A DNA stretch of 63,901 nucleotides, filler included, from Diploschistes diacapsis (lineage: Eukaryota), in assembly GCA_023645945.1 (NCBI GenBank). It is 11 parts of 11 records of this genome, joined end to end, with 100 filler letters (N's around TTAATTAATTAA, not from the genome) between each part and the next. Parts side by side here need not be neighbours in the genome. Positions count along the whole stretch, not along the records: positions 34,857 to 58,297 come from JALAIB010000264.1; 10 more parts are not named here. One strand, given 5' to 3'. This document shows positions 29,244-47,853 of this stretch, piece by piece. The stretch's first letter is position 1. Each line of letters starts with the position of its first letter. Under the pieces are notes generated by a model that saw only the letters and a program-made list of their open reading frames with translations, was not told where the DNA came from and did not search any database. The translations under genes were made by a program, and so were the position numbers.

Positions 29244-29413
29244 CGGACATTATAATTAAAAATTTTAAAAATATTAATACTAATACGGACATTATATTTC
29301 CGTAAATCCATGGACACGGATATCGCAGCTAAAAAATCTAAAACACGGACACTAACACTATCAGTGTCCGTGTCACTGACACGGCCGTGTCAGTGTCAGT
29401 AACGGCCAGCCTA
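29244..29413. mobile_element. Right end of a further copy of the same TIR element
   Basis: Near-identical to 27870-28044 and ends ACGGCCAGCCTA. Confidence 0.8.
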
Positions 29414-30155
29414 ACCTAAAGGTCCTCGAATATTTAATTTAATTTTAAAGATCGGATAATATATCTATATTTCCGCGAGTAATTGTGTCGTCGTTTTTTT
29501 ATATTCCGTTATATCTTTCGGAATATCGTTATTTTTCGAAATTTTATTTATTTTAATACTTATAGCTTTATCACGTTCTCGATTATGATTTCTTAATTAA
29601 CACGTTCTTTGATTAAGTCTCTAAACGAGGATCTTTTCCGTTCGGGTTCCTCGCGGGGGCCTTTCTTGGATCCTCCCGGTACTGATTCTTCGCTGGTATT
29701 AAATCTTTCGAAGGTTTCTAACGTTAATGATTGTTGTAACGCGGGATATCTTATGGATTGTTTTTTAATTAACGATTTATTTACTGAATTATATTCTTTA
29801 ATCGATAGTATCTCGATTAATTTTTTAAAAAACAAAAATATTATCGATTTTTTTTTCTTTTTTGATCCTTTTTATTAACGAGAGTTATTATTTATAATAA
29901 ATCGACGAATAATATTTTCGAGTTCCGGTTATTATGGACTTACTCGAATACTTATTTCGGTTAACGTTTTAAATTCTCGTCATAAATACAAAAATAAAGT
30001 AAGCTTTTCGAATATAAAACGCCAGCGCAGGAATGAAATATTATACTATCGGGGGCTGAGCTTGATCCGGAAGGATTACGTGTAGCTAGACATCTGTAGA
30101 TAAAAGATCTCGATTCGAAAAGCTAGAAAAAAAACTATTTAAATGGGAGGGTACA
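29414..30155 (-). mobile_element. Gypsy-type element: partial 5' LTR, priming site and gag-proximal region
   Basis: 30015-30150 matches the LTR family at 31453 and 32337; 29735-30010 is the reverse complement of 32603-32887. Confidence 0.75.
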
Positions 30156-30390
30156 TCACGAAAAGTTTTTGGCGGCGAAACACCGCGAAAATCCGCGAAG
30201 TTGGCGAAACTGGCGAAACCGGCGAGGTGGGCGACAGATAATGCGTTCAAGCGACTCGCCGTGTTTCGCCAAACATTTTGGCGAAACGTGGCGAAATCGG
30301 CGAAACCGGCGAAACCGGCGAAACTTAGCAAAACTGACAAAACTAACGAAACCGGCGAAACTGGCGAAATTTAACGAAACCGGCGAGGCC
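30156..30390. repeat. GC-rich array of (C)GGCGAAA motifs, probably the subterminal region of another DNA transposon interrupting the LTR
   Basis: Repeated GGCGAAAC/CCGGCGAAA units with a local inverted copy (TTTCGCC). Confidence 0.55.
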
Positions 30391-31115
30391 AATTATTTTA
30401 TACTTATATTTTATTTAATTATTACTCGTCTCGCACCTTTCATAAATATAATCATTTATTATTATAATACGCCTTTTTTATATTTATAATTATTAATCGA
30501 TACTATAAACGTAATATATAAAATCTATAATATAGACGAGATTTATAATATAAAAAAAAATTTATAATATAGAAGAAATTTATGATATAAAAGAGATTTA
30601 TAACGTAAAAGAGGTCTATAATAAACTAAAGAAACTATAATATAAAAAAAAATTAAATATAAATCTAAACGTAATATTAACGTAATAACCGGGCGTCTTT
30701 ATAATAATAACTATTATCTTTTTTATTTCTTCCGGGAACGTTTGCGATACAATAAATATCTTATTAATATTCTATTATAATATCGACGTCTTATATTATA
30801 AACAATAATACGTAACCTATTCTCGTTATATATTCCTCTCTTTTTTTTTATGATCTTTAAAATCTAATCTATCAACGTCGTAATCGTAGTATTTTTATTA
30901 TACGTAATCCGCATAATTAATCGATCGTCTTTTATTACTACTATAATAAACTTAATAAACGTCAGTTTATTAATATTAATACTATAAATCAACGAGAGTT
31001 CATACAGTATATAATNNNNNNNNNNNNNNNNNNNNNNNNNNNNNNNNNNNNNNNNNNNNTTAATTAATTAANNNNNNNNNNNNNNNNNNNNNNNNNNNNN
31101 NNNNNNNNNNNNNNN

Positions 31116-32300
31116 AACTTGTCCATTATAACCTAAATGCTGTTATCTAAAACACCTATTATTAGATCCTTAGATATTAATAGTTTGATTATAAAGTCTA
31201 TTATGATTATCTTTTATGGTTAATCTGGTTTCTCGATAGTTTAAAGAATCCCGTATCTTCTATACGTAGAATATTTGTTCTTTTAATATTTCTCGTATTA
31301 TTTAATAAAATTAATAATTTGTTGTTTCATTCCTTCGAAATGGCAGTTGCGTTGAATGGCTTTAATAGTAGTTATAATACCTTTATATCTATATTCCGGT
31401 GGATTATGATGTTATTATCTACAATTTTATATCTTTTTTATAAGAATGTGTATAAAACGCCAGCGCAGGAAAGGATGCTACTCTACCGGGGGCTGGGCCT
31501 GATCCGGAAGGATTAGGTGTAGCTTGGGCATCTGCAGGTAAAAGGTCTCGATTCGAAAAGCTGAAAAAGAAACTATCTAGATGGAAGAAAGGCACCGTTA
31601 AGTAATGTGGGTGTTAGACCTACCGGGGTTCGGGGACTACCCATCTATACAGCCACCCCCTGACCCTGCCGTGGCTTGGCAAGCACCTGGGCACTAACCC
31701 TGCCGTGGCTTGGCAAGCCCAGCTTGGCAGGCCCCTGGGCTGGGCTGTCTCAGTGTAGCTTCCGTCGTGTTACTAAATATTATTCTTATTGATCTTTTAG
31801 GATATTTATAACTGCTATAAATTCTCGAAAATCTGTCGTGAATGATCCGTCATTATTGATCTTTAATAGTTTAGTTTAACGTAGTTTTTTTATTATATAA
31901 TCTGGCCACTTATTTAACGCGTTAGCTCGTTCGTTTGTTTTATTTACGATCTTTTTAATCGTAAAACGGTATCGTCCGAGAATCTTTAATCAACGAAACT
32001 ATTTCGGGTTAAGTTTCTTTATTATCGTAAACTTTAGTAAATTTATATAATCTATATAGATTTCGATTTTCTTTACTTCGTGAATATAAATATACTATTC
32101 GTTTAAAGTAACGATTATGGCGAGTAGTTTTTAATCGCTTATATCGTAATTAATTTTTATTAATGATATCTTTCTCGAATAACAGGTTATCAGCCGTTAC
32201 TTATTATTATTTATTCGAAAGGATCCGAATAGAATATTATTAGTCTCGAGTAATATATTTAAATTAAAAAACCCGAAGAACGAGGAAAACGATCGAATAT
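31116..32300 (-). mobile_element. Ty3/Gypsy pol relic (RNase H to integrase region)
   Basis: Minus strand reads INYDISD*KLLAII...IYIDYINL...KLNPK*FR*L...NERANALNKWPDY, a RIP-damaged NYxIxDKELLAI...TDHKNL...ADALSRRPDY. Confidence 0.85.
31453..31752 (-). mobile_element. Solo LTR (300 bp) with 5-bp TSD, inserted in the Gypsy pol
   Basis: Flanked by GTGTA at 31448-31452 and 31753-31757. It is the reverse complement of LTR 32337-32602 plus an internal duplication of about 34 bp. Confidence 0.9.
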
Positions 32301-32336
32301 CGTAAGTCTATTATAGATTAATTAAAGCGCTACCGA

Positions 32337-32887
32337 TGAGACAGCCCAGCCCAAGGGCCTGCTAAGCTGGGCTTGCCAAGACACGGCAGGGTCAGGAGGT
32401 GGCTGTATAGATGGGTAGTCCCCGAACCCCGGTAGGCCTAACACCCACATTACTTAACGGTGCTTTCTTCCTATTTAGATAATTTCTTTTTCAGCTTTTC
32501 GAATCGAGATCTTTTACCTATAAATACCTAAACTACGTTTATTCTTTCCGGATCAGGCCCAGCCTTCAGTAAAGTAACGTCCTTTCTTACGCTGGTGTTT
32601 CATATTCGAAAAACTCACTTTACCTTCGCACTCGTGACGAGAGTTTAAAACGTTAATCGAACCAAATATTCGAGTGAATCTACGATAACCGGAATTCGAA
32701 AATACTACCCGCCGATCTATTATAAACAATGGCCCCCGCTGATAAAAAAGATTAAAAGAGAAAAAAAAAATCGATAATATTTCCGTCTTTTAAAGAATTA
32801 ATCGAGATACCATCGATTAAAAAATACGATTTAATAAATAAATCGTTAGTTAAGAAACAATCTATAAAATATCCCGCGTTACAATAG
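32337..32887 (+). mobile_element. 5' LTR (32337-32602, TG...CA) and start of the internal region of a Gypsy-type element
   Basis: TGAGAC...TTTCA ends, followed by ATTCGAAAAACT, which is nearly complementary to the LTR-internal AGCTTTTCGAAT. Confidence 0.85.
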
Positions 32888-33368
32888 NNNNNNNNNNNNN
32901 NNNNNNNNNNNNNNNNNNNNNNNNNNNNNNNTTAATTAATTAANNNNNNNNNNNNNNNNNNNNNNNNNNNNNNNNNNNNNNNNNNNNCTGCTTAACGATT
33001 TAGTTTCTTTAATTAACACTCCCGATATTCCTTACAGATTTATTTAATATTAACGTATATTTTATTTCATTAATATCGCTAAACTATCATCTTTTACGTA
33101 ATGTTATAGTTTCTATAACCAGATTAGATGTACATTTCTTTTAAAATGTATATCCTTTTATCGAAATTATCAATCATTCTTCTTACTGCCTATAAATGGC
33201 AACCGCGTCTAAAAAGTTCCTTATATTAGATCAGATACTGGGTAGTTTGGCGTTTCAAATTTCTAAATTCGGCATTAAACATTCCTGATAATTTCTATAA
33301 TATAATCAAATATTCTGCTATCTTTTAATATTTATTAGAATACTAAGAATCTAGATTTAAAATCATAG

Positions 33369-34275
33369 TATAAACACAAGGCGCGCTGTCTAGGGAGACT
33401 TCCCTTGCTGTAGTAGGTAGGTAATCGTAGGTGGTGTAATAGGTGAATGTAGTGTGATCTCGTAGTCAACAGCATACCCAGGTAGGACATTTGTGAGGTG
33501 TAGGATGCATTCCTTGTCTAGAGCTACCTAGCAGGCCTCTTTAAATGGAGCTGCCCTTCGGGGACTACCCCACTAAGTCTTATAGCTTACTTTTCTGTTT
33601 ATATACGACCCCCCCCTCGACAGTTCGCTGCCCCATAACGAACTTTATATAGATCTTATTAACCGGAAATCTTTTTCCGGCTATCTATATCCTAATATAG
33701 TTTTGTATTTTTTAAACAATCGAAATATTTAGAAACCTATCATTTTTAATATTCCCTTCTCGACGTAATTATATTTTAAACGTAATAATATTTCTGAATC
33801 TATTCTTTTATATTTTATTCTCTTGAATACGGCAGGACAAAAAGGCGGTAATTATTTAAAGATATTTTTAACTTTTACCGTATTTATATTATCCGTAAAT
33901 ACTCTTTAAAAAATATTCTTATCTTCTATAATATTCTTACCATCCATTAATATTCTTTTAAACAAATATAATCAGCAGTATGTCCGTCCTTCTTATCTTT
34001 TTTTTATCTCCTTTCCCGTCTCGTTATTACTAATAAAAAGTCAATTACAGATAAATAAACAAAAAAGTAGATAAAGAAATTTATCACAAAATTAAGCAAG
34101 CTATAAAGCACAAGATAAGCATATTAACACATAAAAAAATAAGTACGTAAGCAAGAAAGTATTTAAAGGATAAACAAGAAAGCAAGCTTATTAAGAAACG
34201 AGCAGACAACCGAACAGCCATATAAATAAATAGATACTACTTTTTTCCTATTATCGGCCCCTAGGGTCTTATAAT
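33369..34275 (-). mobile_element. 3' LTR (33369-33603), PPT and 3' internal region of a further LTR family
   Basis: LTR ends TATAAAC...GTTTATA (RIP form of TGTAAAC...GTTTACA); adjacent CCCCCCCTC is a minus-strand PPT. Colinear with 58796-59705. Confidence 0.75.
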
Positions 34276-35624
34276 ACTAACTCTAACTTTTAAGCATATA
34301 ACCTTCAATCAAAATGGTTCCATCTTTTCATAAACTTTTTCTATATTTTTTTCTCTTTATTTATAGTTTAGATATTTATAGGCTTACTTTAAAAAATAGA
34401 TTACGAAGATTTCTAAGGATTTTGAAGAGCATTACCTAACAATACGCCAAAGGAAATACAACGTTTTTTAAACTTAAAGAAAAAATTTCTTTTCCGCCCT
34501 TTTAAAGACGAAATACGATTATTAAAAAATATAAAAATAAACGTTATTTCCGGACGAGAATCTAGACGTAAATAAAAAAAAGAACGAAAAAGAAGATCAA
34601 ATAAATAACCTTGATCTAAGCATAAAAAAGATAAAATCCAAAAAAAATAAAGAAGAAGAAAACGAAAAAGACCTTATAAGAAAATAAATACGGAATAAAA
34701 TTAAGGATTAAATACTGAAAGTAAGCCTATAAATATCTAAACTATAAATAAAGAGANNNNNNNNNNNNNNNNNNNNNNNNNNNNNNNNNNNNNNNNNNNN
34801 TTAATTAATTAANNNNNNNNNNNNNNNNNNNNNNNNNNNNNNNNNNNNNNNNNNNNATATGGGATCTAAAAGGCTTTAATACTTTTATAAAATAAATATA
34901 TGTAATTTTATTTTTAAAGCATACCTACCTTCGCCCTTATTATATAAAAATAATCTTTATGGTTATAACCTCAGGTACTCTTTCGTGTGTATTTTAAGGA
35001 AGTAATCGCAATATCTATAAGCATTCTGATAAAAGAAATTCGATTGCCGTAGAGAAATAATTTCAGAAAACGTCCCGTGCTTAAAATGTAACCATGCCCC
35101 TTTTATAGCTTTCTTTCACGCTTTTGGTTATGTCTGTTTTTTAATGCAATCCCTTATCTCTGTAACGCACGTTACGATTCGCCCTTACGATGTACTTTGG
35201 GGATACGTTAGTATATATTAGTGCTTAGTCGAGTCAAGTTCAATTTGGCTATTTATCGAGGATGACGGATGAGGCACTTTCATCCCTGTGTTCCTTTTAG
35301 TGTCTTTATCGATCCTCTTTTTTTTCGAAAGGGTTGTAAGATCAGCCTTCAACGTGCTCTTCAGTATGTATCGAGGTAAGTCTTAATTATGAGCGGGGGA
35401 TTTGCCAGGACCTTGAACGAATGCGTCGTTGAACTATTTTTTGACTTCTTTAGCTGCTGTGCGTGTCTTGGTAGGTTGCGGCTCTTATAGCATCGAAACG
35501 TGTTTTGAGGGTTTTTACTTTTACAAGAATAGGGAATTTTTACTCTTATTCCGTTTTGTTCTTTGCTGAGTTTTTTCTGGTACTATTTTTCTAATACTTT
35601 ATATTTTAATTCTATCATTTTATT

Positions 35625-37119
35625 ATGAAACCTCAAATCACTTTCGTTATAGCCGCGGTGGCTTAAACCGCTGCGGCTTTCCCGCATATGGCCATCAACG
35701 ATCTAGCAAAACGAGCATTGTTTCATGGCAGAGCTGGAGCTCCGGCATCTGGCGTCCCTATTCCGGATCCTGCATAAGTCGCAGGAATCTTTGATCCTAC
35801 CCTGCAATACGTGAGTACGACAGGTGAGCACGCTTTTATGCCCCCTGGTGAAGGGGACCAGAGGGGACCGTGCCCGGGATTGTAAGGTTCAATTACTTGA
35901 TATCAAGCTCATGCTCAACGTTGATGAATAGGAATGCTGCAGCAAACCATGGGTATATCCCCCACAACGGCGTCGGAACAATCCAGGTAGGTTGAGGACA
36001 AAGAGCAACCATACTCAAATCCTGAATCTGAATGTAGGACTTCATTAACGGAACCTACACGGCATTCGGAATGGGACTAGATCTGGGTGGATTTCTTGCA
36101 GTATACGGTTCGTAACCCTCTTTCCAACCCCCAAGACCATCATCCTATATTCTAACACCATGTAGGCGCCATCGAGGATGGCGATCTCACAAGCTGGTCC
36201 ATCGGCGGTCCACCAGGGATCCTCGGTCTCGGCGGCAACGGACTGATTGGCTCGCACAACAAGTACGAGTCGGACGTTTCCCCGACTCGGCCCAACCTCT
36301 ACGAATACGGCAACAACTACGAGGTCGAGATGTCGCAGTGGCAGGCGCTCTACGCCAAACAATCTTCCCTCTCCAACGACGAATCCAACTACAACCTCGC
36401 CGTCCTCCAAGAATTCCGCGCCGAGCGCTTCAACCAGTCCATCGCCAACAACCCCAACTTCTTCAACGGGCCCTTCAGCGGCGTGACCGTGCAGCCCGCG
36501 GCCTACACCTTCATCTACCGCTTCATGGCCAACAAGTCCGCCGAGCACCCGGACGGCGTGCTGACCCAGGACGTGCTCAAGTCCTTCTTCGGCATCACCG
36601 AGAACGCCGACGGGAGCTTTAGCGGCGGCCTAGGCTGCGAGCGCATCCCCGATAACTGGTACAAGCGCGCGATCGGCGACGAGTACACCATCCCCTTCTA
36701 TGCTTTGGATCTGAACTACGAGGCGCTGCAGTACCCGCAATTCTTGAGCGTGGGCGGCAACACGGGCACCACGAACAGCTTTACGGGCGTGGACATTACG
36801 GATCTCACGGGGGGCGTCTTCAACGCGCAGACGCTGCTGCAGGGGAATAACCTATTCTGTCTGGGGTACCAGTTCGCGCAGGCGGGGTTGACGGATCAGT
36901 TGGAGGCGCTGGGCGGGACGCTGACGGAGCTTATTGGCACCATCAGCCCGCAGGCGGCGGAGGCTATCAGCAATTTGGGCTGTCCGGTAAGTCTATGCGA
37001 GGGGGCATTGATGATGGTGCAAAGGCTGACGTGATTTGCTACAGCAATTGAACGATATCGATACGTCGATGCTCAACCAGTTGCCGGGGTACACGAAGGG
37101 CGGTAGCATTTTGAGGTGA
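35625..37119 (+). pseudogene. Heme-thiolate peroxidase / unspecific peroxygenase (long type), with two premature TAA codons in exon 1
   Basis: Signal peptide from ATG 35625, GDQRGPCPGL|NAAANHGYIPHNG (PCP heme-ligand motif), SHNKYESDVS, YRFMANKS. In-frame TAA at 35664-35666 and 35775-35777; 4 introns. Confidence 0.88.
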
Positions 37120-37664
37120 TGGGGCCTGGGGCGAGGCATGTAGGAGGCTTTGACGCCTTGTGGACTGCGAGCTCTGATTCGTAATATGTTGAAGTTTTTC
37201 TTGTAGATAATATGGAAAACTTAGTGACGCTTGTAAAGTTGTTTGAAGTCCACCATTCATACTCGGCTCGTAAGACAGTCACGTGAGCAAAGATAGAAGC
37301 CGCTATGAACCTTTTTTGTCACGCTGTTTACCCTCGATGCCTGAGCTCTTCCGGGTCTCGCTATTCCTGCCATGAAGAACGTAGGCGATGAGACTTAGGT
37401 GACAAGTGCTTTGCATCTTTCTCGACGAGGCTCCGGGAATATAAGCATCCTTGCTCGCTCGCCGGAGTGGGCGATCAATAGCACAGCCTTGCCGATGTCT
37501 CATCTCTACCTCAACAATTCGCTTCACTTGACGTCTCACGGTAAGTTCTCAACAGGACCAAAAGTCTCAGAACGCCTCGACGCTATCAACTTTTCCCTTG
37601 ATTGTGAGCACCATCACCCCATTCAGTGGAAGAACAAGAAGTCGTCGCATAGCGCTGTCCTGCT

Positions 37665-40600
37665 ATGTCGTCGCTGTGGAGCTCAAGGATTCAAACGACA
37701 AAAGCCACCAATGGATGCCGAGACAATGAGGCGCCAGAAGATGCCAGTATCGGCAACATTCTAGCGATGGCGTACCAATCGTTGGTGCAAATTGAAAACA
37801 GTCTCCTGTTCGCCGACAAGTTTCTCGGAGCAGGGTCTGTGTTCCAAGTCAATCGCGAAATCTACAAAGAGACACATCATTCGCCACTGAGCTACTACGT
37901 AGCGGTCAAATACATGCGACTGGAACAGCGCCCGGAGACCCGTCGCCAAATTCTCACTGCGCTGACCAGGGAGTTGAAGGTGATCACACATTCGGTGCTT
38001 CGGAGCCATCCTCACATCTGCTCGGCCCTGGCGTTCGGTTTCACCAATCCTAATCTCGGACAGCCAAGGCCGTTTCTTGTGATGCCATATGCTGAATTTG
38101 GCACCCTGTCCGAAGTTCTTCAAGCTGTACGAATGCACAGGCAGATATCAATCCTTGAGCAACGGGACTTGGCGTTAGACGTCGCGTTGGGTCTCCAAGC
38201 ACTGCACGAGTCTGGATTCATTCATGGCGATGTGAAAACCAACAACGTTTTGGTATCTAGCCGCTCTTATCCCCTAGGGTACGATAGCGGAAATGATGGT
38301 ATTCCGTGGATCGCTAAAGTGGCAGATTTTGGTTCGTCTTTGAGTCGAGAAGATGCTGAAGGTCACGCTTTTCACTACACCGGGACCGCGCTCTATAACG
38401 CGCCTGAGATCGAAAATGGCGAGGTACTCCGTGACAGAGTCTTCGAAGCATACAAGAAGGCTGACACGTACTCTTTCGGGCTCCTCCTCTGGGAAATTCT
38501 AGAATCAGGGTCTTTCTATCTCGACACGATCAAGGAATATGACGCATTAATCGCGCAAAAACGATATAGAGAGTTCTTGCAGAAGACTCATGATAGGTCT
38601 GGAAATGCAATGTTTAAAATAGCTTTAACCTCCCTTCAGGATGCGAGAGATGAGATCACCGATCAAAAATGTTGGGACAAAATAGTAAGGACCTTGGAAT
38701 CATGTCTGAACAGGGAAGGCCGTTTCCGAAAAGACATGAAAAGGGTCGCCGAGGAGCTTCAAGGAAGCATAGTGTACGCTGTTTGTTTTTCTTTGATGTG
38801 ATTGTGCTGATTCAAGGCTCGCAGATCCGACAGATCTCCGGTTGTCTATTCTTTGCCTAAATTAACGAGCCAGCCAGTCACGAAGCCTACTATGGTCGGA
38901 CCCTTACCGCAGAATAGACCTTATCCTATCATGACCCCCGGACTGTGGCAGCTACAACCATTCCGCTCAACAGAAGTTCACCCAACGGGCACGACCTTCC
39001 GTCCCATACCAAGAGATGCAGTTATGAAAGACAGACTTCTCATTCCGTATCGAAGACTAGACTCGCGCGACCTTGAGACGCCGCAATCTCGCGAGTGTAA
39101 TGGGCTCAGCCTTCAACACGTGTGTCACTCCATCTGCCAATCTGAAGTGCTGCCGTTGTGTTAACGCTATACTAGGCGATTCTGTCCCCGCTCCCACCTC
39201 GGGAGATTCAAGAACGCCTGGTTGAACAGTGGGAGACGCAGGTACACAATGGTCAGGACTCTAAAGTCATTTCGCAAGCTTGCTTGGAATTGAGTATATG
39301 CCATTACTTCGGCTTTGGATGCGAACCAGATCGACTTGCATCCCTCCAATTTCTACGGCAAGCCTCTTTTGGAAGCACTACCGCGAAAGCAATCGTCGGC
39401 CGTATCTCCGCCGCCTTTCTCAAAACCAAAGATGGCGGAATCGATAATGAGAGACCGTATAATGATGGAAAGGACGCAGCTTATTTCAGCCAGCGTCTCC
39501 TCTCTACGAATTCTACCATAATAATGCGTCCCACTTTGCAAGCAAAGCCTCGACTTTCTTTGAGACCTGGCCATTACCCAGATAGTTCGAGAGTCGAGCT
39601 CGTGATTCGGCTAATCCGTCAAGAACTGGACTGTCGACAAGATATGAGAGGTAGTGTGGACATCAACCGCCTCGAGCAACTGTGGGCAAGTCATATTCGG
39701 AAGGAATCAACTCCATTGGAAAGCCTATCTCAACTAGACATCTCAGCATCTCTGACAGAGTCATGCAGATTGGGACTCTTTGAGACTGCCAAAGCCTTAG
39801 CAGCCATGTGTCTGCAGTTCATAGGCAGGTTCGGGAATCCCAACCCTCTACATTGGTTGATAATGTTCCCACCGGATCAGGCCCAATACATTGCAGAGCT
39901 ACTTGTGCTCGGAATAAAGGGTAAAAAGCCCTACGGGATCTGCTTCCATTGTCTTAATTCTCGGATTTCGTCTATTACCTTTCTACCTGAGCACTGTATG
40001 GAACTCATTGGAACCCCACTTCATTGGGCTGTTCGTGGCCGAAACCTCGCTCTCGTAAGAAAGCTCTTAGATTTAGGCGCTGACATGGCAGTGAGATATG
40101 CACCACATGTTCCAATTCTGGGGGAGCCGCCAAGCATCGGTCGTGCAGCTTATAGTCCGCTGGATCTTGCCCTCGAATTTCATCTACACGAAATTGCTGA
40201 ATTATTACTGGACCATAGCCGACTTCAAGGTGCAGGAAACGAGCTCGAGATAGCTCCCTCTATCATGGCCCATACTGCAACGCCCTTCTCCCGCTTCATT
40301 ATCCACGGGCCATATTATCGTATTGCTCTACGGAAGACTATAGAGGTTCTGTCTCGTAGAGGCTACAATATCAACAGATCAGACTACTTCGGAGATCAGC
40401 CACTCCTTGTCTCGCTGAGAAATGCCGCTCATGAGGAATACATTACTGAAGAACTCCTCAAGGCTAATGCATACCTCAGTGAAAGCTTGCCAGGAAACGA
40501 CAATCTGGCAATCCTTGTAGTTCTCAGCGCAGGGACAGATCATCCATCAAGAGCATTTAAACTCCAACAAATTCTCCATCTCGTTGAGGATCTTAACGCT

Positions 40601-41569
40601 TGTAACGACAAAGGATACAATGCGCTCCATTACTGCGCTTTCACTAGCAATGCCTCAATGGCAAAAGTCCTCCTTTCATCAGGTCAGGTCGATATCAGTG
40701 CCAAGAGCTCAAATAAATATCAAAGTACGCCACTCATCATAGCTGCTGAATATGGCGGAGTCGCAATTTTGAACATACTGCTCGAGGTAGGGGCAGACCC
40801 AGATTCTTCCAACGCTCGTGGTGAGACCGGCCTGGAGTGCGCGATCCGCAATCGACAGTATGAGACTGCCTCCTTGCTGATTGAGCACGGTGCTTGCCTT
40901 TGTTTCCGTTCTCGGAATTCCGTTCCTCAAGACACAGTTCTACATGCGGCGTGTGTTGGTCCTAGCAATCGACCTCCGCTTGTAAGACGCTTGCTCATGG
41001 GTCACGCCAAGCTTCGGGAACATGACGTTCTTCACCAGACCATTGATAAACGTTATGGATTCGGGGCGAAGACTCCACTTCATCAAGCCATCATGTTTGC
41101 TGATCTCGACTCCGCCAAAGCACTCTTGGAGTACGGAGCGGATGGGAACTATTGGACGCATCCTCCGGAACTTGATGCCTCAAACCGGATTACCAAGATT
41201 CTCCACAAACAAACGGCCTTTGACTTTCTCAACCGTCTTCTATCAAGGGCGAAGACCAAGGGACTTTATGGCGAACAGATTCAAGCGGCTCGCCAGGGAC
41301 AATTGCAAAATTCGAGATTGATCATGAATGGCAAATACTTTGATCAATCACAGGAGAGACTCGAATGGGAGAAATTCGATGGCGTGCCACAATTCAACAT
41401 TCGACTGGAAGAGATACAATCTCAGCAACAAGGTCAAGCTGGAGTGCGTAGCTTCATTGCCCGTCTTGAAGAGATAAGGCGGATCATGGTGACACGAGGA
41501 TGCGAAGAGACGGACCCAGAAACTCTGCGGCTTCCATTTCTACTAAAGCAGTCGAAAGAAAGTGAATAG
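37665..41569 (+). CDS. Protein kinase - SEL1-like repeat - ankyrin repeat protein, 2 introns
   Basis: LGAGSVF, YVAVKY, HGDVKTNN, ADFG, YNAPE, DTYSFGLLLWE; LELSICHYFGFGCEPD (SEL1-like); TPLHWAV, NALHYCA, TPLIIAA, TPLHQAI (ankyrin). Introns about 38774-38824 and 39120-39175. Confidence 0.9.
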
Positions 41570-41710
41570 GAGTCCGTCTCGATTAATTTTAAACCTCAGG
41601 CGAGAGACTGTCTAACGCCTTTTGCGCTGCAACGATTTGCGGCCGTGGGTTTTGCTTTAGTTATCGACGCCTGAAGGTTGTACCGCCCTTCCGATGGATC
41701 AACCTCTTAT

Positions 41711-42911
41711 TCACGAGGGCAGATTTCCTACGAAGACGACCATGACCGCACAATAAGCCGCCGTCGCCGAGAATATTTCAAAATTTCGTGATTCCGTCAT
41801 GCAAAGGGCTGCGGAGAAAGTCGTGGTGAAAACCGCTATCGCCCAGATTCTGGAGAGCATCATGTCCATAGTGTACAGAACAGTAATAGGCACAATCAAC
41901 GTCAGAATGGCAAGGACTGCGGTCAGAAATCTTGAAACGGCGGATACCCGTTGAGCCGAAAATTGGACAATGTGTTGGTCAGTCGACTTTTCGCGGTCCT
42001 TCTACAGACTAGTCAGCTAAGCTGTGTCTGCGGGCTCGAACGAACAGAGCGCGTACTGCGACACCAAAAATCTGCTGCGCGTCAGATCACCTTCATGTTC
42101 TTGGGTGTGTATAATCTTTACCCAACTGAATCCGTGCTCATGCAGTCTGACGGCACATTTCTCCAGGAACCAGTCTAATCCAGCGTGATCGGCCGGACCT
42201 TGCGGAGCGCTCAAATCCTCCCAGTCCTGGAAAGCTACCGATTCCTGGGGCGTCAGGGGTTTGTTACCTTCGAGCCAGCGGCAGATACTCAGTATCTGCG
42301 ACTCGCGTGGCTTTCGCCGTTCGACGTGGCGGTAATACTCGTTCAGCAGTTTATCTTCGATCCAGATAAGCTACGGCGAACTTCTTGGAACGAGTTTCAT
42401 CAATACCGTAAGCTAATAGTTTGCAGCTGATGTTTGATAGGAGGTCTTGGCGATGCGTATTTCTATCCTGCCGTCGCGAGTGGAGGAAGAAAGAGGTACA
42501 CTCGTTTCGGTCCAGATCGTCAAGCTGTTCCTGCAACTCAAGAATCTCATCTTGCTTGTGCAGTAAGACCCGCGTATGCAAACGGCTGAATTGTTTGAAT
42601 ACGCAGAGGCTGCGGTCGCTGCTCAACAAAGCTGCTAAGCGGGGATAGCCTGGGCGATAGTTTTCGACTATGAACGTCGCTATCAGGAGACATGGCACTT
42701 TCGAGATCAAGAAGAGGATGGCAAGACATACTGATGCCACTCTTATGCTTGAAGTAGGGTTTGCTACGGGATGGGTTTGCTGTCTGAGAGACTATGTTCC
42801 CAAACGGTGAGCTACATTCTGCTGAGAGATGCGGAACTGACCTCTGGCTCGTTTAATGAAGTTTGGGACATTGCCGCTCGGGTCTTGACTGCTTCTGTAG
42901 CTACTTGCCAT
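41711..42911 (-). CDS. DUF6594-like fungal protein with C-terminal transmembrane helices, about 4 introns
   Basis: ENYRPGYPRLAALLSSD..FKQFSRLHTRVLLHKQDEILELQEQLDDLD; C-terminal LTLIVPITVLY..FTTTFSAALC..EIFSATAAYCAVMVVFVGN. Probable ATG at 42911 with GTCAGT and GTATGT introns; the start is less certain. Confidence 0.85.
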
Positions 42912-43204
42912 TTTCAGTCTGCCTGGTAGATTCAGTATGGAACAGGACACGAAGTCTTCGGGGCCAGCAGTATGTGCGACTACATGTAAATGCAGGCGCG
43001 GCGTAGCTACGGCAATGTATCATGCACCAAGTTTGAGAGGCTAGCCGTTTGGGACTTTCTAGACCTCAAGATGCAATGTCAGGCAGGCATTCTGGGCATT
43101 AATGCAGCCTCGCAGTCTTTCTTCACAATCCTCCGTTCACGACCTTCCAACCGGAGCCTGTCTCTCTCAGTCTTCTCGGGCACAAAGCGTTGTGGTAAGA
43201 TGTA

Positions 43205-43589
43205 TCATGACGTGGGTACCACCAAAGAATCCTCCCGTACAAGACCATTGTATTGCGCCCCAGTGACCTGCCACTTCAGTCTGTATGAAGTCCCTTCGAT
43301 TGCGACCACGACCAGCGGTCCTTCTGGTGGTGCCTGATTGCTCGTGGCAACGTAAACCACCTCGTTGACAGAATATAGGGGAGCGCTCGGAAACTGATGT
43401 CTATCTCGTCAGAACCGTTTCAAAGGCATTGGCGGCTGTACCTGAGCTTTGCTCGCATATTCCCTGACGTGGGCTTTCCCGTCTGGAGGCGTATCCGGCA
43501 AGACCGTGGGCTGGATGTCAGCTTTAGACAAGGCATTCGTGTATTCATGTGTCGAAGAGAGGTACCTTTCTGTCGTTCAGATCGGCCAT
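43205..43589 (-). CDS. 93-aa three-exon microprotein with predicted SH3/Tudor-like beta-barrel (not in the ORF track)
   Basis: Exons 43589-43566, 43510-43442 and 43393-43205; introns of 55 and 48 nt with GTAC donors, CTGAC branch sites and CAG acceptors. Product: MADLNDRKPTVLPDTPPDGKAHVREYASKAQFPSAPLYSVNEVVYVATSNQAPPEGPLVVVAIEGTSYRLKWQVTGAQYNGLVREDSLVVPTS. Confidence 0.78.
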
Positions 43590-43821
43590 CCTCTTCGCAG
43601 CTCAAATCTCCGAGGACCTATGGATATATCGAGCTTTCCTGAGAAGGCGCTTGAGAGGATCAGGCCGAGAATCTGGAGACTCATGCAAGGCTTAGGGCCC
43701 CCCTTGCCTATTGATCTGTTGCGGGGTGCGCAGCCTTGCGCAATGTACTGATCCTTGAACCGCCTTGGCTTCGTCACTTTCGCTGGGAGAGGATGTATGG
43801 AAACGCAATGTATACTGAAGC

Positions 43822-46101
43822 ATGGAATCGCAGGTTATAAGCACATTTACTCAGCACAGCGCTGCCTTTTTCAAAGACCGATCAGACTACGATAGTGTCA
43901 CTGTCCTGCTGCTCTATTGGCGTGACGGGGACCTAGAAGTCGACGAGGAGCTCAAGGCAGTACGGAAATTATTCGGTGCATCGTTGAACTTTGTCGTTGC
44001 CTCGTACCCAATCCCGGGCGATGGAACTCAACAGGCAAGGCTCTACAGGCAGATCGCCAGCGTCGTCGAAGAATCAGCTTTGCAGCCGAGGAGTCTCTTG
44101 ATTCTGTACTATACGGGCCATTGCAGGGAGACAGAAGGTAAAGCTGAGTGGGCTGCGTGTGTGCTTTTCTGCCCCAAGATCGAATAGCCTGCTCTAATTG
44201 CTGAATTAGGAGAAGACGAGGCGGCTCAACACTAATATGGTCGGATATACAACGATGTTGCTTTGGCGCAATCGGTGATGTTCTGCTGATACTCGATTGC
44301 TGTCATGCTACCCTGTTCGCTAAAGGTCGTAAGGATTGCGGCAGGTTTGAGATACTCGCGGCATGCGCCAAAGGACTTGAATCCCCTTTGCCTGGACTTG
44401 GATCCTTTACCTGGGCTCTCTTGAAAGCTTTGTCGGAGGAGCGTCTAAGAGATGGAATTGCAGTACGAAAACTGAGAGGCTTAATCGAAGATTACTCAAG
44501 AGGTGCATCCCGGACCTCTGTGACAATGAATCCGTCACTGATGCTGTTTGATAGAGACACCGTTCTGGGACTCTTTTGGCAGCGATAGTGTTGCGACTAT
44601 CATCATCAAGCGCCTTAAGCCGTCTTCACATGTGGGCTTCGCCAAAAAGCCCGCAGGATATGTATTCTTCCGAGCATCACTGGTAGATGATTTGGATGGG
44701 CTTCAGATATCGGACTGGCTCAAGACCAATGCTCCGGAAAACGTATCAGCTATACACATTGAAGCTGTTGTCTCGAAAGCCCGCCGGCTACAGCGCAATC
44801 TTGACCATGGCGCTTTCGCTCCAACCTCTATCCTACGAAAGCTCTCGACAACAGCACAATCAGAAATATTGAGAGAATTGCAGTCTCTCGACACGGTTAT
44901 GGCGAACTCTAGGCAGGCCGCATCGGATACCAAAAAACGTGACAATAGTAGGGCAGATAAGGATGTTTTCGAGGCTATGCAGAGCACCATAGATGAAGTC
45001 AGCAATCTGATTGAAACACCAATTCTTCTTGATCTGAGCGAAGAAAATATAGACCGTGCAGTTAAGGATGACGATGCTGTTCCTCAAGATATAATAGAAA
45101 ATATCTCGCTTCGCAACCAGATCATGGCTTCAGACGAAGACCCCAGAACTTCATACGAAATACCTCGTCAAGATATCGAGTTCGAGGACAACTTGAATCG
45201 GTTCAATTATGGCCGGATTGGCGAACAGAATGTACTCCTGGAATTCTTCGGGTACGAGACGGACCAGAACGGAGATCTCTTCCCGGAAACGGTTCAGCAG
45301 CTTAATCTAATGGCAGCGCGTTTGTGCCACAGCAAGCGCCTAAGCTTTCACATCCTTCCATGCCTCGGTTATGTCGAAGACAAAGTCGAGTGTCGATTCG
45401 GACTCGTCTACCAGCTTCCGCCCTTGCTGAGCGCAGCACGCTTATGGGTAATTTCGTTGCACTCACTGTTCACTACCATCCACCGGGTATCTCTCAGCCA
45501 GCGCATGAAGACGGCCTACGCAATCATTACAGCCTTGGAGAATTTCCATCGCATAGGTTGGATCCACAAGGCCATCCGCAGCGACAACGTCTGCTTTCTC
45601 GTCAAAGACAACAGCTTGGAAGCCGTTGACAACAGGAAAGGCGACGGCGGCGACGTCGACTTCTCCTCCCCGTGGCTGATCGGGTTCGAGTACGCCCGCG
45701 CCGGCGCCGCCGGCAGCAAGCTCGAGGAGGACTATTCCGAGGTGCGGAACCTCTACCGGCACCCGGACCGCTGGGGCCGGCCCGCGGCCAAGCACACGCG
45801 CGCGCACGACATCTACTCTTTGGGGGTCGTGCTCATGGAGATTGGCTTCTGGAAGGCCATCGACCAGGTCGTCGCTCCGCCCAAGCCTGGCCAGCGCCGC
45901 GTCGCGGCGGCGTTCAGGGAGAGTTTGATGCGCAGGCTGGAGCGCGCCCTTCCGCACCAGACCGGTGACGTGTTCGTGGCGGCGGTCAAGGCTTGCTTCG
46001 ATTACGAGGGGGAGGTGGTTGGTAAGAGCGAGTTCGAGATGCAGCAGATCTTGCAGAGGACGGTGCTTGCGCAGGTGAAGAAGATTGTGAACAAAGTGTA
46101 G
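43822..46101 (+). CDS. Caspase-fold (clan CD) protease fused to a C-terminal pseudokinase domain, 2 introns
   Basis: VTVLLLYW, LLILYYTGH (His at 44119), DVLLILDCCHA (Cys at 44298), EILAAC, SFTWAL; C-terminal WIHKAIRSDNV, LIGFEYAR, LYRHP, DIYSLGVVLMEIGFW. Introns about 44157-44209 and 44503-44554. Confidence 0.88.
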
Positions 46102-46650
46102 ATGCTAAAAAGAGATGAAGAAAAGGCAACATGGCAAGCTCTCGTTGAGAGAAAGGGAGGACACGACTCGAATTTTATTTGCTCTAAAGTGTATTCTATG
46201 AACTGCCTTCCCACAAGAGAAGTTCACCGCAAGGCTATATAGAAGCCGGTACCCAAAGTAGGAATTACTTAGTGAGATGTGTTTACAAACAAGGCTCTTG
46301 ACAGATCTTAGGTTCATTATTTGTAGGGTCCATGGTATTTCGATGTAAAGACTGTAGAGTTTGAAAGTATTAATGCAAACATTGACGTCTTGTACTACTC
46401 TACTACTCAAGTTGTCAGTAATGACTTGAAGTGATGCTGTGAAACTTGCGGCGGACGCGCTAGCTCGCCATGGCACATGGCTGCCTGCCTGCAAGGAGGG
46501 ATAGACGCACCCGTTGACTCATACTCTATAGTAGTATGTGCGGGGAGCAGGAAACATGTAGAGATCGTGCAAGTGACATATGCATCAGGTACAAACTGGA
46601 AATTCATTAGAGAAAATAGAACTTCGTAGATTGGTGATGCAAGATGTTGG

Positions 46651-47853
46651 ATGTTGTGCCCTATGGTATGTGGTATGTTATGTTCAACTGTTAGCAGACC
46701 AAGACCCGAGAATTGCGCTAATAATTGGGCCATTCTTTGCAGGCTTCAAAGCCTGGCCAAAAACTTTCTTCATGTACCATACCTTCTTCACCATGCACTT
46801 CCGATTGACGAGTCCCTTGTAATGCACCTTCAGCGGTCACTCTCACTGTGTACCCAGCCATACTGCGCACAATCACTTTTTGCTGTCCATGATGGCTTCA
46901 TTCGCCGTTCGCTTTGCCGTTCGCTTGCGCCACTCCAGAGACGCAAATCACACCTTTGCGTCCAGGTCGATCAGCCAAGGGATCCCATAAAGAGTGATGT
47001 TAAGCGTTTCGAGCCGTTGCAGTATGATTTCAATAAGAAAGCCAAATACTGCATGATCGAACTGGAGATTAAAAAGGAGGGAAAAGTCAAAGAACGTGTT
47101 ACTTGTAGCGTCGCCGAGGCGCTCGTGGAATACATAAAACCTGGGCTACTCCTTTCGCCTGCCCTGGCGATTGAAGACCCTATGAAGTTTCTCGAGGAGC
47201 ACTTCACCAAGATCCTAACAGAGCCAGAGAAACAACAAGACAAGGGAGATAGCGACGGGCGTTACAATGCTGCAATCCCACTCTATGTCTTGGAAGACAT
47301 TACTCCTACCCCAGGCCAGCTGCGAGCGAAACGAAAGACGGAAACCAAGGTCGTTTGGACCTCTGTCGACCAGCCTCTTCGCATACAGTCCATGATGAGC
47401 AGCGCCTTCAAGGCTCTCCTGCTCGGCGGCCGCTCTATTTTCACGCTGCAGTCTAGGTTGGTAGTCGAACGGAAGGCAAGCATGACTCTTCGACGTGCGC
47501 AACGTACGCACACTCAAATGACCTCCAACCCGAGCAAAGCCTCACCTGTCTATTCAGATTCACCAAGAGCATATCGATGCAACATGCAAGAGCCCAGTGC
47601 TGAGACGCGCTCGATGGTCGAATGGAATTGCACGTACATGCCGCATGTGTGGCCGAATGTGTTGATGAGGAGTATGCCAGAAGATACCAAAATGGCACCC
47701 AAAATTGCGTTACAGCCGCACAGCAACAATGTACAGGTAAAGTGGACGTTCGTACGGCATCTTGAAAAACGTAAAGCGCTCAGCTCATCCTCGCGGAGTG
47801 CTGAGGTTGATAAGCCTCTATCAAGGGCAATGCAGGACTTTATGAATAGGTGA
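46651..47853 (+). other. 400-codon ORF of unknown status; only the central part looks protein-like
   Basis: Long open frame with a charged central segment (DVKRFEPLQYDFNKKAKYCMIELEIKKE) and no recognised motif. Confidence 0.3.

What the first reader, a model, noticed from the sequence alone, without database searches (positions are those of the whole stretch)
37665..46101. Four-gene kinase-ankyrin / DUF6594 membrane protein / SH3-like microprotein / caspase-pseudokinase cluster: candidate fungal immune or cell-death system
Seen: four tightly packed genes on one contig. The kinase-SEL1-ANK gene (+) converges on the DUF6594-like gene (-) with a gap of about 140 bp. The 93-aa microprotein gene (-) lies about 290 bp upstream of that, and sits head-to-head, 232 bp apart, with the caspase-fold/pseudokinase gene (+). 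All four have intact reading frames. Established: fungal gasdermins are clustered with activating proteases (Podospora het-Q1/het-Q2), ankyrin repeats act as fungal NLR sensors, and animal necroptosis combines a kinase, a pseudokinase and a caspase. Inference: the repeat-sensor kinase phosphorylates the pseudokinase, which releases the protease to cleave the microprotein or the membrane protein as effector. I know of no description of this combination.
Basis: partly seen in the sequence, partly recalled or inferred. Interest (0 to 1): 0.9.

Follow-up and report, generated by a model that had tools for sequence, protein, structure and literature searches.

The report
Conserved fungal kinase–protease four-gene cassette
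Four neighbouring fungal genes (a kinase with ankyrin repeats, a membrane protein, a tiny barrel protein, and a protease fused to a dead kinase) stay together as one unit in distantly related fungi, so they most likely form an undescribed working system, probably a switchable cell-death or defence device.

Summary
All four genes have intact spliced frames at the stated spacings.

- **Same block elsewhere.** The block, in the same order and orientation, recurs in four further distinct metagenome cassettes at only 28-50% protein identity. Each is flanked by different housekeeping genes. A fifth has three of the genes and a sixth is a collapsed remnant.
- **Co-inheritance.** Trees of gene 1 and gene 4 agree. 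All four genes have dN/dS below 1 between two 93%-identical cassettes that sit in unrelated contexts.

Parts:
- G1: an active TKL-type kinase with ankyrin repeats. The Sel1 call is sub-threshold.
- G2: DUF6594, a helical hairpin plus three membrane helices.
- G3: a Tudor/SH3-like barrel microprotein.
- G4: a metacaspase-like domain with His/Cys kept, fused to a kinase-like domain lacking all three catalytic residues. It is sister to fungal HeLo-pseudokinase proteins.

Function is inferred, not shown: a kinase-to-pseudokinase switch releasing a protease onto G3/G2. No paper found in seven searches describes it. The G4 structure and the complex prediction could not be run.

The parts
37320..46459 (.). 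Extent of the cassette as a unit (about 9.1 kb).
   Evidence: In run X2 one 9536-nt contig covers exactly 37320-46459 with 61 other letters. Its left end runs on unlike the window, and window 35000-37320 has no cover there. The L002/L004 cassette of 9.2 kb has matching limits. No terminal repeats were found.
37665..41569 (+). G1: kinase, variable linker, one Sel1-like motif, ankyrin array. 1265 aa; exons 37665-38773, 38825-39119, 39176-41569.
   Evidence: Splice sites and frames. Pfam kinase 2.2e-26 and Ank_2 3.9e-32. Sel1 only E 0.0079. Orthologues of about 1100-1260 aa have the same architecture.
37827..38408 (+). G1 catalytic motifs: GAGSVFQV (aa 55-62), VAVK (79-82), HGDVKTNN (187-194), DFG (221-223), APE (246-248).
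   Evidence: The same motifs are kept in L001, L002, L004, L012, P0150, P0158, P0162 and P0252. P0156 lacks an exact DFG, and L006 is truncated.
41711..42911 (-). G2: DUF6594 membrane protein, 303 aa. Exons 42911-42842, 42667-42407, 42354-42065, 42001-41711.
   Evidence: Pfam PF20237 on both halves. Junctions were set by alignment to the loci. Hydrophobic segments start at about aa 225 and aa 280. The model of relative P0087 shows a helical hairpin plus three C-terminal helices.
43205..43589 (-). G3: 93-aa protein. Exons 43589-43566, 43510-43442, 43393-43205. The last exon is the Tudor/SH3-like barrel.
   Evidence: Read directly. The domain is conserved in six cassettes, with 15 invariant columns of 63. 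It has 83 relatives among 1.84 billion representatives. AF2 pLDDT is above 90 and the domain matches Tudor folds.
43822..46101 (+). G4: metacaspase-like domain, conserved middle domain, pseudokinase. 724 aa; exons 43822-44156, 44210-44502, 44555-46101.
   Evidence: Introns were placed by alignment to P0006 and others. There are no internal stops.
44107..44309 (+). Putative catalytic dyad of the caspase-like domain: His in YYTGHC (aa 96-101) and Cys in LDCCHA (aa 140-145).
   Evidence: His and Cys are kept in every sequence that covers them. Exons 1 and 2 are 40% and 42% identical to P0017 (E 9e-25 and 3e-25). That region of P0017 hits Peptidase_C14 at 1.2e-07.
45232..45699 (+). Pseudokinase core with degenerate motifs: VLLEFF in place of VAIK (no Lys), WIHKAIRSDN in place of HRDLKPxN (no Asp), GFE in place of DFG.

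Best explanation
The region is a conserved four-gene cassette of about 9 kb in Pezizomycotina. It is inherited and relocated as one unit, and is therefore one functional system. That much is shown.

The mechanism below is inferred from the parts.
1. G1 is an active TKL-type kinase. Its C-terminal ankyrin array acts as the sensing or regulatory part.
2. G4 is a metacaspase-like cysteine protease held in check by its own C-terminal MLKL-type dead kinase domain.
3. G1 engages or phosphorylates that pseudokinase, as RIPK3 does with MLKL, and this frees the protease.
4. The protease then acts on the tandem G3-G2 pair. G3 is a small protein built of an acidic tail, a basic [FY]R.[KR]V-type motif and a Tudor/SH3-like barrel. 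G2 is a DUF6594 membrane protein with a cytosolic helical hairpin and three transmembrane helices.
5. The most likely cut is in G3 at its basic motif. This would change the state of the membrane protein, which is the output.
6. The likely biological role is regulated cell death or defence.
For: **Unit shown by synteny**
- Of 15 loci fetched with the G4 pseudokinase alone, four distinct cassettes (L001, L002, L003=L004=L005, L012) carry G1(+), G2(-), G3(-), G4(+) in window order at 28-50% protein identity. L008=L009=L010 carries G2-G3-G4.
- Flanks are unrelated housekeeping genes in every locus.
- L002 and L004 are 93% identical in DNA over exactly the cassette and unrelated outside it.

**Named genomes**
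- Amniculicola: G4 is KAF2001715 and G3-G2 is KAF2001716.
- Biscogniauxia: G1 is KAI1495536 and G4 is KAI1495539.
- Glonium: G3 is OCL01653 and G4 is OCL01655.
- Alternaria: G4 is KAH8634153 and G1 is KAH8634157.
- Further pairs share contig lengths.

**Co-inheritance and constraint**
- G1 and G4 trees of the same 10 cassettes share all well-supported groups. Per-gene identity matrices agree.
- dN/dS between L002 and L004 is 0.22-0.29 (G1), 0.11-0.45 (G2), 0.71 (G3 domain, 13 changes) and 0.30-0.38 (G4), with no stops.

**Parts**
- G1 catalytic motifs are kept. Its nearest solved kinases are LRRK2, MerTK, RIPK1 (3e-10) and MLKL (7e-10).
- The G4 His/Cys dyad is kept. Peptidase_C14 is hit by 3 of 9 N-terminal sequences, best 1.6e-08.
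- The G4 kinase-like domain lacks the beta3 Lys, the HRD Asp and the DFG Asp.
- The G4 group (24 rows) is one well-supported group (100/99) within a family whose other members are often HeLo-fused (16 rows).
- The G4 profile hits IRAK4 and MLKL weakly (E 0.0015-0.0063).
- The G3 barrel matches PHF1 Tudor at Z 7.5, rmsd 1.9 over 54 residues. The basic motif occurs in 18 of 33 small family members.
- Three gene models fuse G3 to DUF6594.
Against: - No functional data of any kind exist. No RNA run holds the locus, and no binding, cleavage or toxicity test was made.
- The caspase-like fold of G4 was not modelled, because the job was not accepted.
- The window's own G4 exons give no direct Pfam hit. 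The N-terminal profile finds no solved caspase by sequence.
- The L008 group lacks G1 within 7 kb upstream and 10 kb downstream, so the kinase is not obligatory in cis.
- The window's G3 lacks the acidic tail of most relatives.
- AF2 gives pTM 0.36 for the fused G3-DUF6594 model, so there is no confident packing of the barrel on G2.
- The fusions may be annotation artefacts. In the window no in-frame fusion is possible with the sites I read.
- DUF6594 shows no likeness to HeLo (hhalign probability 0.1%) or to any known pore former.
- No shared promoter word was found.
Confidence: 0.45

Rival explanations
1. The cassette is a real functional unit, but it is a non-lethal signalling or regulated-proteolysis module at a membrane, for example a stress, developmental or symbiosis-related switch. 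The membrane protein and the barrel protein would be regulators or scaffolds rather than executioners.
For: - All four genes are under purifying selection.
- DUF6594 shows no resemblance to known pore formers or HeLo.
- There is no gasdermin, NLR or HeLo gene in the cassette.
- Tudor-type barrels are usually binding modules (fold match only).
- Many carriers are lichen-forming fungi (names).
Against: - The distribution is patchy and cuts across classes, and the cassette changes genomic place.
- One cassette is an island in AT-rich desert and one is a collapsed copy.
- The two Diploschistes-like isolates give pN/pS of about 0.85 in G1.
- The closest relatives of the pseudokinase carry the HeLo cell-death domain.
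Confidence: 0.25
2. The cassette is a selfish or allorecognition element. It could be a toxin-antidote or spore-killer-type driver, or a heterokaryon-incompatibility locus. Its parts would poison and rescue, which would explain its mobility and presence/absence variation.
For: - The same cassette at 93% DNA identity sits in two unrelated contexts.
- In run X2 the cassette contig has a different left neighbour and a lower depth figure than its right neighbours (the tool warns that depth is not a copy number).
- One cassette lies in AT-rich, RIP-like surroundings, and there is a decayed copy.
- The trees are incongruent with taxonomy.
- Amino-acid variation in G1 between isolates is high: 28 nonsynonymous against 10 synonymous changes.
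Against: - No terminal repeats or transposase are associated with the edges.
- Most cassettes lie among ordinary housekeeping genes at normal GC content.
- No similarity to known drivers was seen in Pfam scans. Known spore-killer families were not searched specifically.
- dN/dS is well below 1 between L002 and L004.
Confidence: 0.2
3. The adjacency is a chance meeting of four expanded fungal families in an accessory region, with no shared function.
For: Ankyrin, kinase and DUF6594 families are large in Pezizomycotina (my own knowledge). The window's cassette borders an AT-rich block.
Against: - The same order and orientation occur in at least four further distinct cassettes and several named genomes, with no flank synteny.
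- The G1 and G4 trees are congruent.
Confidence: 0.02

Closest known systems
RIPK3-MLKL necroptosis module of animals, and fungal or plant 'MLKL-like' HeLo/HELL-pseudokinase proteins
   Same: - An active TKL-type kinase is paired with a protein whose C-terminal kinase-like domain has lost its catalytic residues.
- G4 reads GFE in place of DFG. That MLKL also reads GFE is recalled, not tested here.
- The G4 pseudokinase belongs to the DUF7580 family, whose other members are often fused to the HeLo domain PF14479.
- MLKL and IRAK4 are among the few solved sequences hit by its profile.
- RIPK1 and MLKL are among the best hits of the G1 kinase.
   Different: - The N-terminal executioner is a metacaspase-like protease, not a four-helix bundle or HeLo.
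- G4 also lacks the beta3 lysine.
- A RHIM or amyloid motif was not looked for.
- The kinase carries ankyrin repeats.
- Two further genes (G2, G3) belong to the unit.
- Phosphorylation is not shown.
Fungal gasdermin/protease clusters (het-Q1/het-Q2 type; PMC8851545, passages read; PMC12881547, passages read)
   Same: - A protease gene with sensor or regulatory domains is clustered with a putative membrane-acting effector gene.
- About 17-20% of those proteases are caspase-like (CHAT).
[quoted passage not shown]
   Different: - No gasdermin is present. G2 is DUF6594 with transmembrane helices and G3 is a Tudor-like barrel.
- The protease domain is Peptidase_C14-like rather than CHAT or S8.
- The repeats sit on a separate active kinase.
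- There are four genes.
RIPK4/ANKK1-type kinase-ankyrin proteins of animals (recalled architecture)
   Same: An N-terminal TKL-type kinase followed by ankyrin repeats, as in G1.
   Different: No orthology is shown. G1 has a variable linker and a Sel1-like motif, and it is encoded in a cassette. The likeness is in architecture only.
Royal-family barrels (Tudor, chromo-barrel, PWWP) and retroviral integrase C-terminal SH3-like domains
   Same: Fold of the G3 domain:
- PHF1 Tudor: Z 7.5, rmsd 1.9 over 54 of 55 residues.
- PHF20 Tudor: TM 0.79 by target.
- MRG15 chromo-barrel: Z 7.4.
- RSV integrase: Z 6.7.
There are also weak Pfam Integrase_p58_C hits in 2 of 6 members (E 0.024).
   Different: - There is no sequence relation.
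- Only one aromatic residue beyond the first Phe is invariant, so a methyl-lysine cage is doubtful (inference).
- G3 is a free-standing protein of 80-130 aa with an acidic tail.

Membership tests
Active eukaryotic protein kinase (G1) | Gly-rich loop, beta3 Lys (VAIK), HRD-type catalytic loop with Asp and Asn, DFG, APE | tested here: met
   GAGSVFQV, VAVK, HGDVKTNN, DFG and APE are present. They are kept in 9 of 11 sequences examined: P0156 lacks an exact DFG and L006 is truncated. Pfam PK_Tyr_Ser-Thr scores 93.1 bits against a cut-off of 23.1.
Ankyrin repeat proteins (G1 C-part) | Repeats passing Pfam Ank models | tested here: met
   Ank_2 scores 111.1 bits and Ank 95.4 bits, both above the cut-offs.
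Sel1 repeat proteins (G1 middle) | Sel1 repeats passing Pfam PF08238 | tested here: not met
   One stretch scores E 0.0079 and 17.2 bits against a cut-off of 30.7. The four orthologues scanned show none.
DUF6594 (PF20237) (G2) | Match to the whole Pfam model | tested here: met
   Window exons hit profile positions 1-86 (67.4 bits) and 158-238 (72.9 bits). Relative P0087 hits positions 1-238 at 3.4e-57.
Peptidase C14 (caspase/metacaspase) (G4 N-part) | Sequence match to PF00656 | tested here: inconclusive
   The window exons give no hit. Homologue P0017 scores 32.2 bits against a cut-off of 21.4, while P0016 and P0019 score only E 0.032 and 0.01. Of 9 N-terminal sequences, 3 hit the family. The window exons are 40-42% identical to the matched region of P0017.
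Peptidase C14 (caspase/metacaspase) (G4 N-part) | Catalytic His and Cys in the expected order and motifs (xxGHG ... DxCxxG-like) | tested here: met
   YYTGHC and LDCCHA are present in the window. His and the DCC motif are kept in all aligned sequences that cover them.
Peptidase C14 (caspase/metacaspase) (G4 N-part) | Caspase-hemoglobinase fold | not tested
   The structure job for alignment A4 was not accepted. The profile of the N-part finds no solved caspase by sequence.
MLKL family (G4) | C-terminal kinase-like domain without catalytic residues | tested here: met
   VLLEFF has no Lys, HKA stands for HRD, and GFE stands for DFG. Pfam DUF7580 scores 25.4 bits (cut-off 27) and Pkinase scores E 0.0033 on the window exon. 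The profile hits MLKL weakly, at E 0.0022-0.0063.
MLKL family (G4) | N-terminal four-helix bundle / HeLo executioner domain | tested here: not met
   The N-part is caspase-like. HeLo PF14479 occurs only in relatives outside the G4 group. G4 is therefore not a member, though it may work like one.
Gasdermin/protease cluster (het-Q1/het-Q2 type) | A gasdermin gene next to the protease gene | tested here: not met
   No gasdermin family hit appears on any ORF of the cassette or of the loci.
Tudor / SH3-like barrel (G3) | Five-stranded small barrel fold | tested here: met
   The test used the model of relative P0087, residues 31-95, pLDDT 90-97. Matches: PHF1 Tudor Z 7.5, rmsd 1.9, 54 aligned; PHF20 Tudor TM 0.79 by target. 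Foldseek E-values are weak (0.016-0.2).
Tudor / SH3-like barrel (G3) | Aromatic cage for methylated Lys/Arg | not tested
   Only the invariant columns were read. No structural comparison of the pocket was made.
HeLo / HELL membrane-targeting domain (G2) | Profile similarity to HeLo-bearing proteins | tested here: inconclusive
   hhalign of A7 against 14 HeLo-pseudokinase proteins gives probability 0.1%. The wide fold search gives only generic helical hairpins at Z of about 9.

The most novel reading that the evidence does not exclude
This is a third kind of fungal regulated-cell-death pathway, beside NLR/amyloid-HeLo and protease-gasdermin. A RIPK-like ankyrin kinase flips an MLKL-type pseudokinase switch. 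The switch releases a metacaspase-like protease rather than a pore-forming bundle. The protease then processes a Tudor-like pro-protein that controls a DUF6594 membrane executioner. The whole pathway is packaged as a 9-kb cassette that has moved between genomic sites and possibly between fungal classes.
Probability: 0.3. Interest if true: 0.9.

Novelty: new variant of a known kind. Interest (0 to 1): 0.8.

Why it matters
Fungal cell-death and immune pathways are known from a handful of cluster types, and what activates them is an open question. This cassette offers several things:

- **A defined, testable system.** It has four genes, and its logic joins two animal pathways usually kept apart: kinase-to-pseudokinase signalling (necroptosis) and a caspase-family protease (apoptosis/pyroptosis).
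- **A first functional context for two orphan families.** These are DUF6594 and DUF7580, which gave 0 papers, together with a new Tudor-like microprotein family.
- **Evidence on how the MLKL-type switch evolved.** The pseudokinase appears to be a portable regulator that can be coupled to different executioners.
- **A case study in gene-cluster mobility.** The cassette's movement between genomic contexts bears on how gene clusters move in fungi, including lichen-forming fungi.

Tried and rejected
- **Whole genome of the window.** None is held.
- **RNA evidence.** No RNA holder is listed, so introns and co-expression are untested.
- **Complex prediction.** The job was G4 residues 1-330, G2 and G3 of Amniculicola, with G3 as partner.
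- **Structure prediction for G4 (A4).** Not accepted. Only the G3+G2 model ran.
- **Sequence searches of solved structures.** They found nothing useful for full-length P0006, the G4 N-part, G3 or G3+G2.
- **ESM Atlas.** G3 had no reliable neighbour, with a best score of 0.86. G2 matched only DUF6594 itself.
- **DUF6594 against HeLo-pseudokinase proteins.** No relation.
- **Wide fold search of the G3+G2 model.** Only generic helical hairpins, Z of about 9, below the tool's bar for helical folds.
- **Shared promoter words upstream of G4 in five cassettes.** Two 8-mers were found, against up to 2 in shuffles. Rejected, and my ATG positions in the loci were a few bases off.
- **Terminal repeats at cassette edges.** None.
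- **The ~1.87-kb period of N runs.** It is not a tandem repeat.
- **Earlier findings of the scan.** None by place, sequence or words.
- **Search with G2 exon b ('longer').** It returned only the window's own protein, so G2 orthologues in named genomes are known only through the fused models.
- **PADLOC.** G1 hits mad6 (4.6e-37) and PD-T4-6 kinases, as any eukaryote-like kinase might. G2 and G3 give nothing. This is a lead only.
- **WD40 and Ig-repeat giants among G3 profile hits.** Judged repeat noise.
- **AU test against one clade of lichen-fungus G4 sequences.** p = 4e-07. I give it little weight, because the group was named after seeing a tree and the taxon of three metagenome loci was assumed.

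Full report
**What is in the window.**

The window is fungal. A protein 100% identical to G2 exon b is named by its source 'MAG: hypothetical protein LQ340_002702 [Diploschistes diacapsis]'. That species is a lichen-forming Lecanoromycete of the Graphidaceae.

Four genes lie between 37665 and 46101, with spliced frames free of internal stops.
- **G1 (+, 1265 aa)** has two short introns, 38774-38824 and 39120-39175.
- **G2 (-, 303 aa)** has four exons, placed by alignment to relatives.
- **G3 (-, 93 aa)** has three exons, read directly from the sequence.
- **G4 (+, 724 aa)** has introns 44157-44209 and 44503-44554, fixed by alignment to full-length homologues such as P0006.

The window's flanks hold ordinary genes: a family-2 peroxidase on the left and an MFS transporter on the right. 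An AT-rich block lies at 24-36 kb.

**The four genes are one unit.**

I searched the metagenome contigs with an alignment of the G4 pseudokinase alone, keeping 10 kb on each side. This gave 15 loci. Local tblastn with the window's four proteins (E<=1e-3) gave the following.
- G1(+), G2(-), G3(-), G4(+) occur in window order and spacing in L001, L002, L003=L004=L005 and L012.
- L008=L009=L010 carry G2, G3 and G4 but not G1.
- L006=L007 is a collapsed copy in which G1 residues 1-195 run directly into G4 residues 281-724.
- L011 and L013-L015 are too short (1.3-2.4 kb) to judge.

Protein identity to the window is only 37-52% on the pieces compared. Even so, every tblastx hit over 45 bits at E<=1e-6 between window 35-56 kb and any locus falls inside 37692-46143.

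The flanks of the loci hold different housekeeping genes in each case.
- L001: GDE1-type phosphodiesterase.
- L002: Ofd1, an HLH factor and threonine aldolase.
- L012: a Cid1-type polymerase, Rtf2 and glucosidase II beta.
- L008: CorA, a Yap1-type factor and PfkB.

L002 and L004 are 93% identical in DNA over 2524-11710, which is exactly the cassette, and are unrelated outside it. In L004 the cassette is a 48% GC island between 20-22% GC stretches that hold no long ORF.

In a second public run (X2), one contig covers window 37320-46459 at about 99.3% identity and continues on the left into sequence unlike the window. That gives the same limits for the unit. I found no terminal repeats at the edges.

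**Named genomes.**

Database relatives tie the genes together in named species.
- In Amniculicola lignicola, G4 is KAF2001715.1 and a G3-DUF6594 model is KAF2001716.1.
- In Biscogniauxia marginata, G1 is KAI1495536.1 and G4 is KAI1495539.1.
- In Glonium stellatum, G3 is OCL01653.1 and G4 is OCL01655.1.
- In Alternaria alternata, G4 is KAH8634153.1 and G1 is KAH8634157.1.
- Thelotrema lepadinum, two JGI contigs and one ENA contig give pairs with equal contig lengths.

Biscogniauxia is a Sordariomycete. The class of the other genera is from my own knowledge.

**Co-inheritance and constraint.**
- Identity matrices for G2, G3 and G4 pieces give the same grouping: ((L002,L004),L001), (L012,L008), with the window apart.
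- Trees of the G1 ankyrin part and of G4 for the same ten cassettes share every well-supported group.
- Between L002 and L004, dN/dS on the aligned pieces is 0.22-0.29 for G1, 0.11-0.45 for G2, 0.71 for the G3 domain (13 changes only) and 0.30-0.38 for G4, with no stops.
- Between the window and run X2, G1 shows 28 nonsynonymous and 10 synonymous differences (pN/pS about 0.85). They are concentrated in the linker exon and in the last ankyrin repeats.

**The parts.**

*G1.* It keeps every catalytic kinase motif, here and in its relatives. Its best solved relatives are LRRK2, MerTK, RIPK1 and MLKL (E 3e-11 to 7e-10), which marks it as a TKL-type kinase. The ankyrin array is strong. The Sel1 label is not.

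*G4, N-part.* It has no direct Pfam hit. However, it is 40-42% identical (E about 1e-24) to the region of Trapelia protein P0017 that passes Peptidase_C14 (32.2 bits against a cut-off of 21.4). Three of nine N-terminal sequences hit that family. The His of YYTGHC and the Cys pair of LDCCHA are kept in all sequences that cover them. The motifs look like those of metacaspases; that comparison is recalled.

*G4, middle and C-part.* A strongly conserved middle region (KPAGY...WLKTNAP...KARRLQ) has no known family. In the C-terminal kinase-like domain the beta3 lysine is Glu/Asp, HRD reads HK[A/E/N/G], and DFG reads G[F/Y][E/D]. The domain belongs to DUF7580, and 16 of the 56 relatives found carry the HeLo cell-death domain. 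In a tree of 60 rows, the 24 G4-type sequences form one group (bootstrap 100, SH-aLRT 99) apart from all HeLo-fused ones. L004 and L008 were left out of that tree. G4 therefore looks like an MLKL-type protein whose executioner domain has been exchanged for a protease.

*G3.* It founds a small family. There are 83 hits at E<=1e-3 among 1.84 billion representatives, of which 33 are 75-160 aa long, with the domain at the C-end. Most of these members have an N-terminal acidic run (19 of 33) and a basic [FY]R.[KR]V-type motif (18 of 33) before the domain. The window's copy has a short N-part, with GKAHVREY at that place. An AlphaFold model of Amniculicola P0087 gives the domain pLDDT 90-97. It matches Tudor, chromo-barrel and PWWP folds (PHF1 Tudor Z 7.5, rmsd 1.9 over 54 residues; PHF20 Tudor TM 0.79 by target; Foldseek E 0.016-0.2).

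*G2.* It is DUF6594. In the same model it has a long helical hairpin (residues 100-184 of P0087) and three C-terminal helices with pLDDT 82-93, which match the hydrophobic segments of the window protein. No specific fold relative was found, and it shows no relation to HeLo.

*G3-G2 fusions.* Three gene models fuse G3 to DUF6594 (P0087, P0062, P0118). They may be real fusions or merged annotations. Either way they show the G3-then-G2 arrangement in three more genomes.

**How it probably works.**

Everything in this section is inference. The architecture suggests the following chain.
1. The ankyrin kinase is the input.
2. The pseudokinase is a switch.
3. The protease is the signal amplifier.
4. 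The barrel protein and the membrane protein are the target and the output.

The analogy is with RIPK3-MLKL for the first step and with protease-gasdermin clusters for the second. Several features fit a conflict-related role such as defence, allorecognition or drive better than a housekeeping one:
- the patchy spread across classes;
- the changes of genomic place;
- the decayed copy;
- the variable ankyrin end of G1;
- the HeLo-bearing relatives of the pseudokinase.

Against this, DUF6594 has no likeness to a known pore former, the L008 group has no G1, and no experiment or expression datum exists.

**Literature.**

'DUF6594' and 'DUF7580' occur in no paper of the library. Five further searches found no description of this gene set.

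I read passages only of two papers.
- PMC12881547 states that some HELL domains sit in proteins with kinase or pseudokinase domains. It also states that gasdermin-controlling proteases can be fused to kinase-like domains, and that such pathways come as two- or three-gene clusters.
- PMC8851545 describes the het-Q1/het-Q2 clusters. Its datasets S1 and S2 were not looked at, and they might list protease-kinase architectures related to G4.

**What could not be done.**
- The structure of G4 was not modelled, because the job was not accepted.
- There are no RNA data.
- There is no genome-wide census, because no fungal genome collection with context was at hand.

These gaps leave three things open: the fold of the G4 N-part, all protein contacts, and the exact exon junctions of G2.

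Noticed in passing
window 23511-34856 and 58298-62134: Pairs of 44-N runs, 12 bases apart, recur every ~1.87 kb inside AT-rich blocks (GC about 0.29-0.33). The stretches between them are not copies of each other, so the period belongs to the masking or scaffolding and not to a satellite.
   Followed up: partly
L006:9412-11445 (=L007): A collapsed cassette. The G1 kinase N-lobe (aa 1-195) is joined directly to G4 aa 281-724, and G2, G3 and the caspase-like part are deleted. A Tc3-type transposase HTH ORF lies about 5 kb upstream.
   Followed up: partly
L004:1-2534 and 11711-21676: The cassette is a 48% GC island between 20-22% GC stretches that hold no ORF of 110 aa or more. Its left edge shows C>T and G>A changes relative to L002, as RIP leakage would give.
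   Followed up: partly
L008:1-7168 and 11758-21314 (=L009, L010): This is a three-gene form of the cassette (G2, G3, G4) with no G1 nearby. The neighbours are CorA, a Yap1-type bZIP, PfkB and an ordinary kinase.
   Followed up: partly
window 37665-38771 (G1 kinase): It scores higher against the PADLOC model mad6, a kinase of a bacterial defence system (4.6e-37, 126 bits), than against Pfam Pkinase (85 bits).
   Followed up: no
window 46630-47853 (+): A 407-codon open frame without a Pfam hit lies just right of the cassette. In run X2 this stretch carries several small insertions and deletions, so it may not be coding.
   Followed up: no
proteins P0059, P0090, P0095, P0108 (hits of the G3 profile): Very large WD40 (one with an nSTAND1 NTPase) and Ig-repeat proteins match the G3 barrel profile in 5-16 short stretches each. 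This is probably beta-hairpin repeat noise.
   Followed up: partly
window 36156-37034 (+): The C-terminal part of a family-2 (heme-thiolate) peroxidase gene lies directly left of the cassette edge. This stretch is absent from the cassette contig of run X2.
   Followed up: no
L004, L008, L012: Three cassettes of different clades come from contigs with the same assembly prefix. They are either paralogous cassettes in one genome or several fungi in one metagenome; this was not resolved.
   Followed up: no
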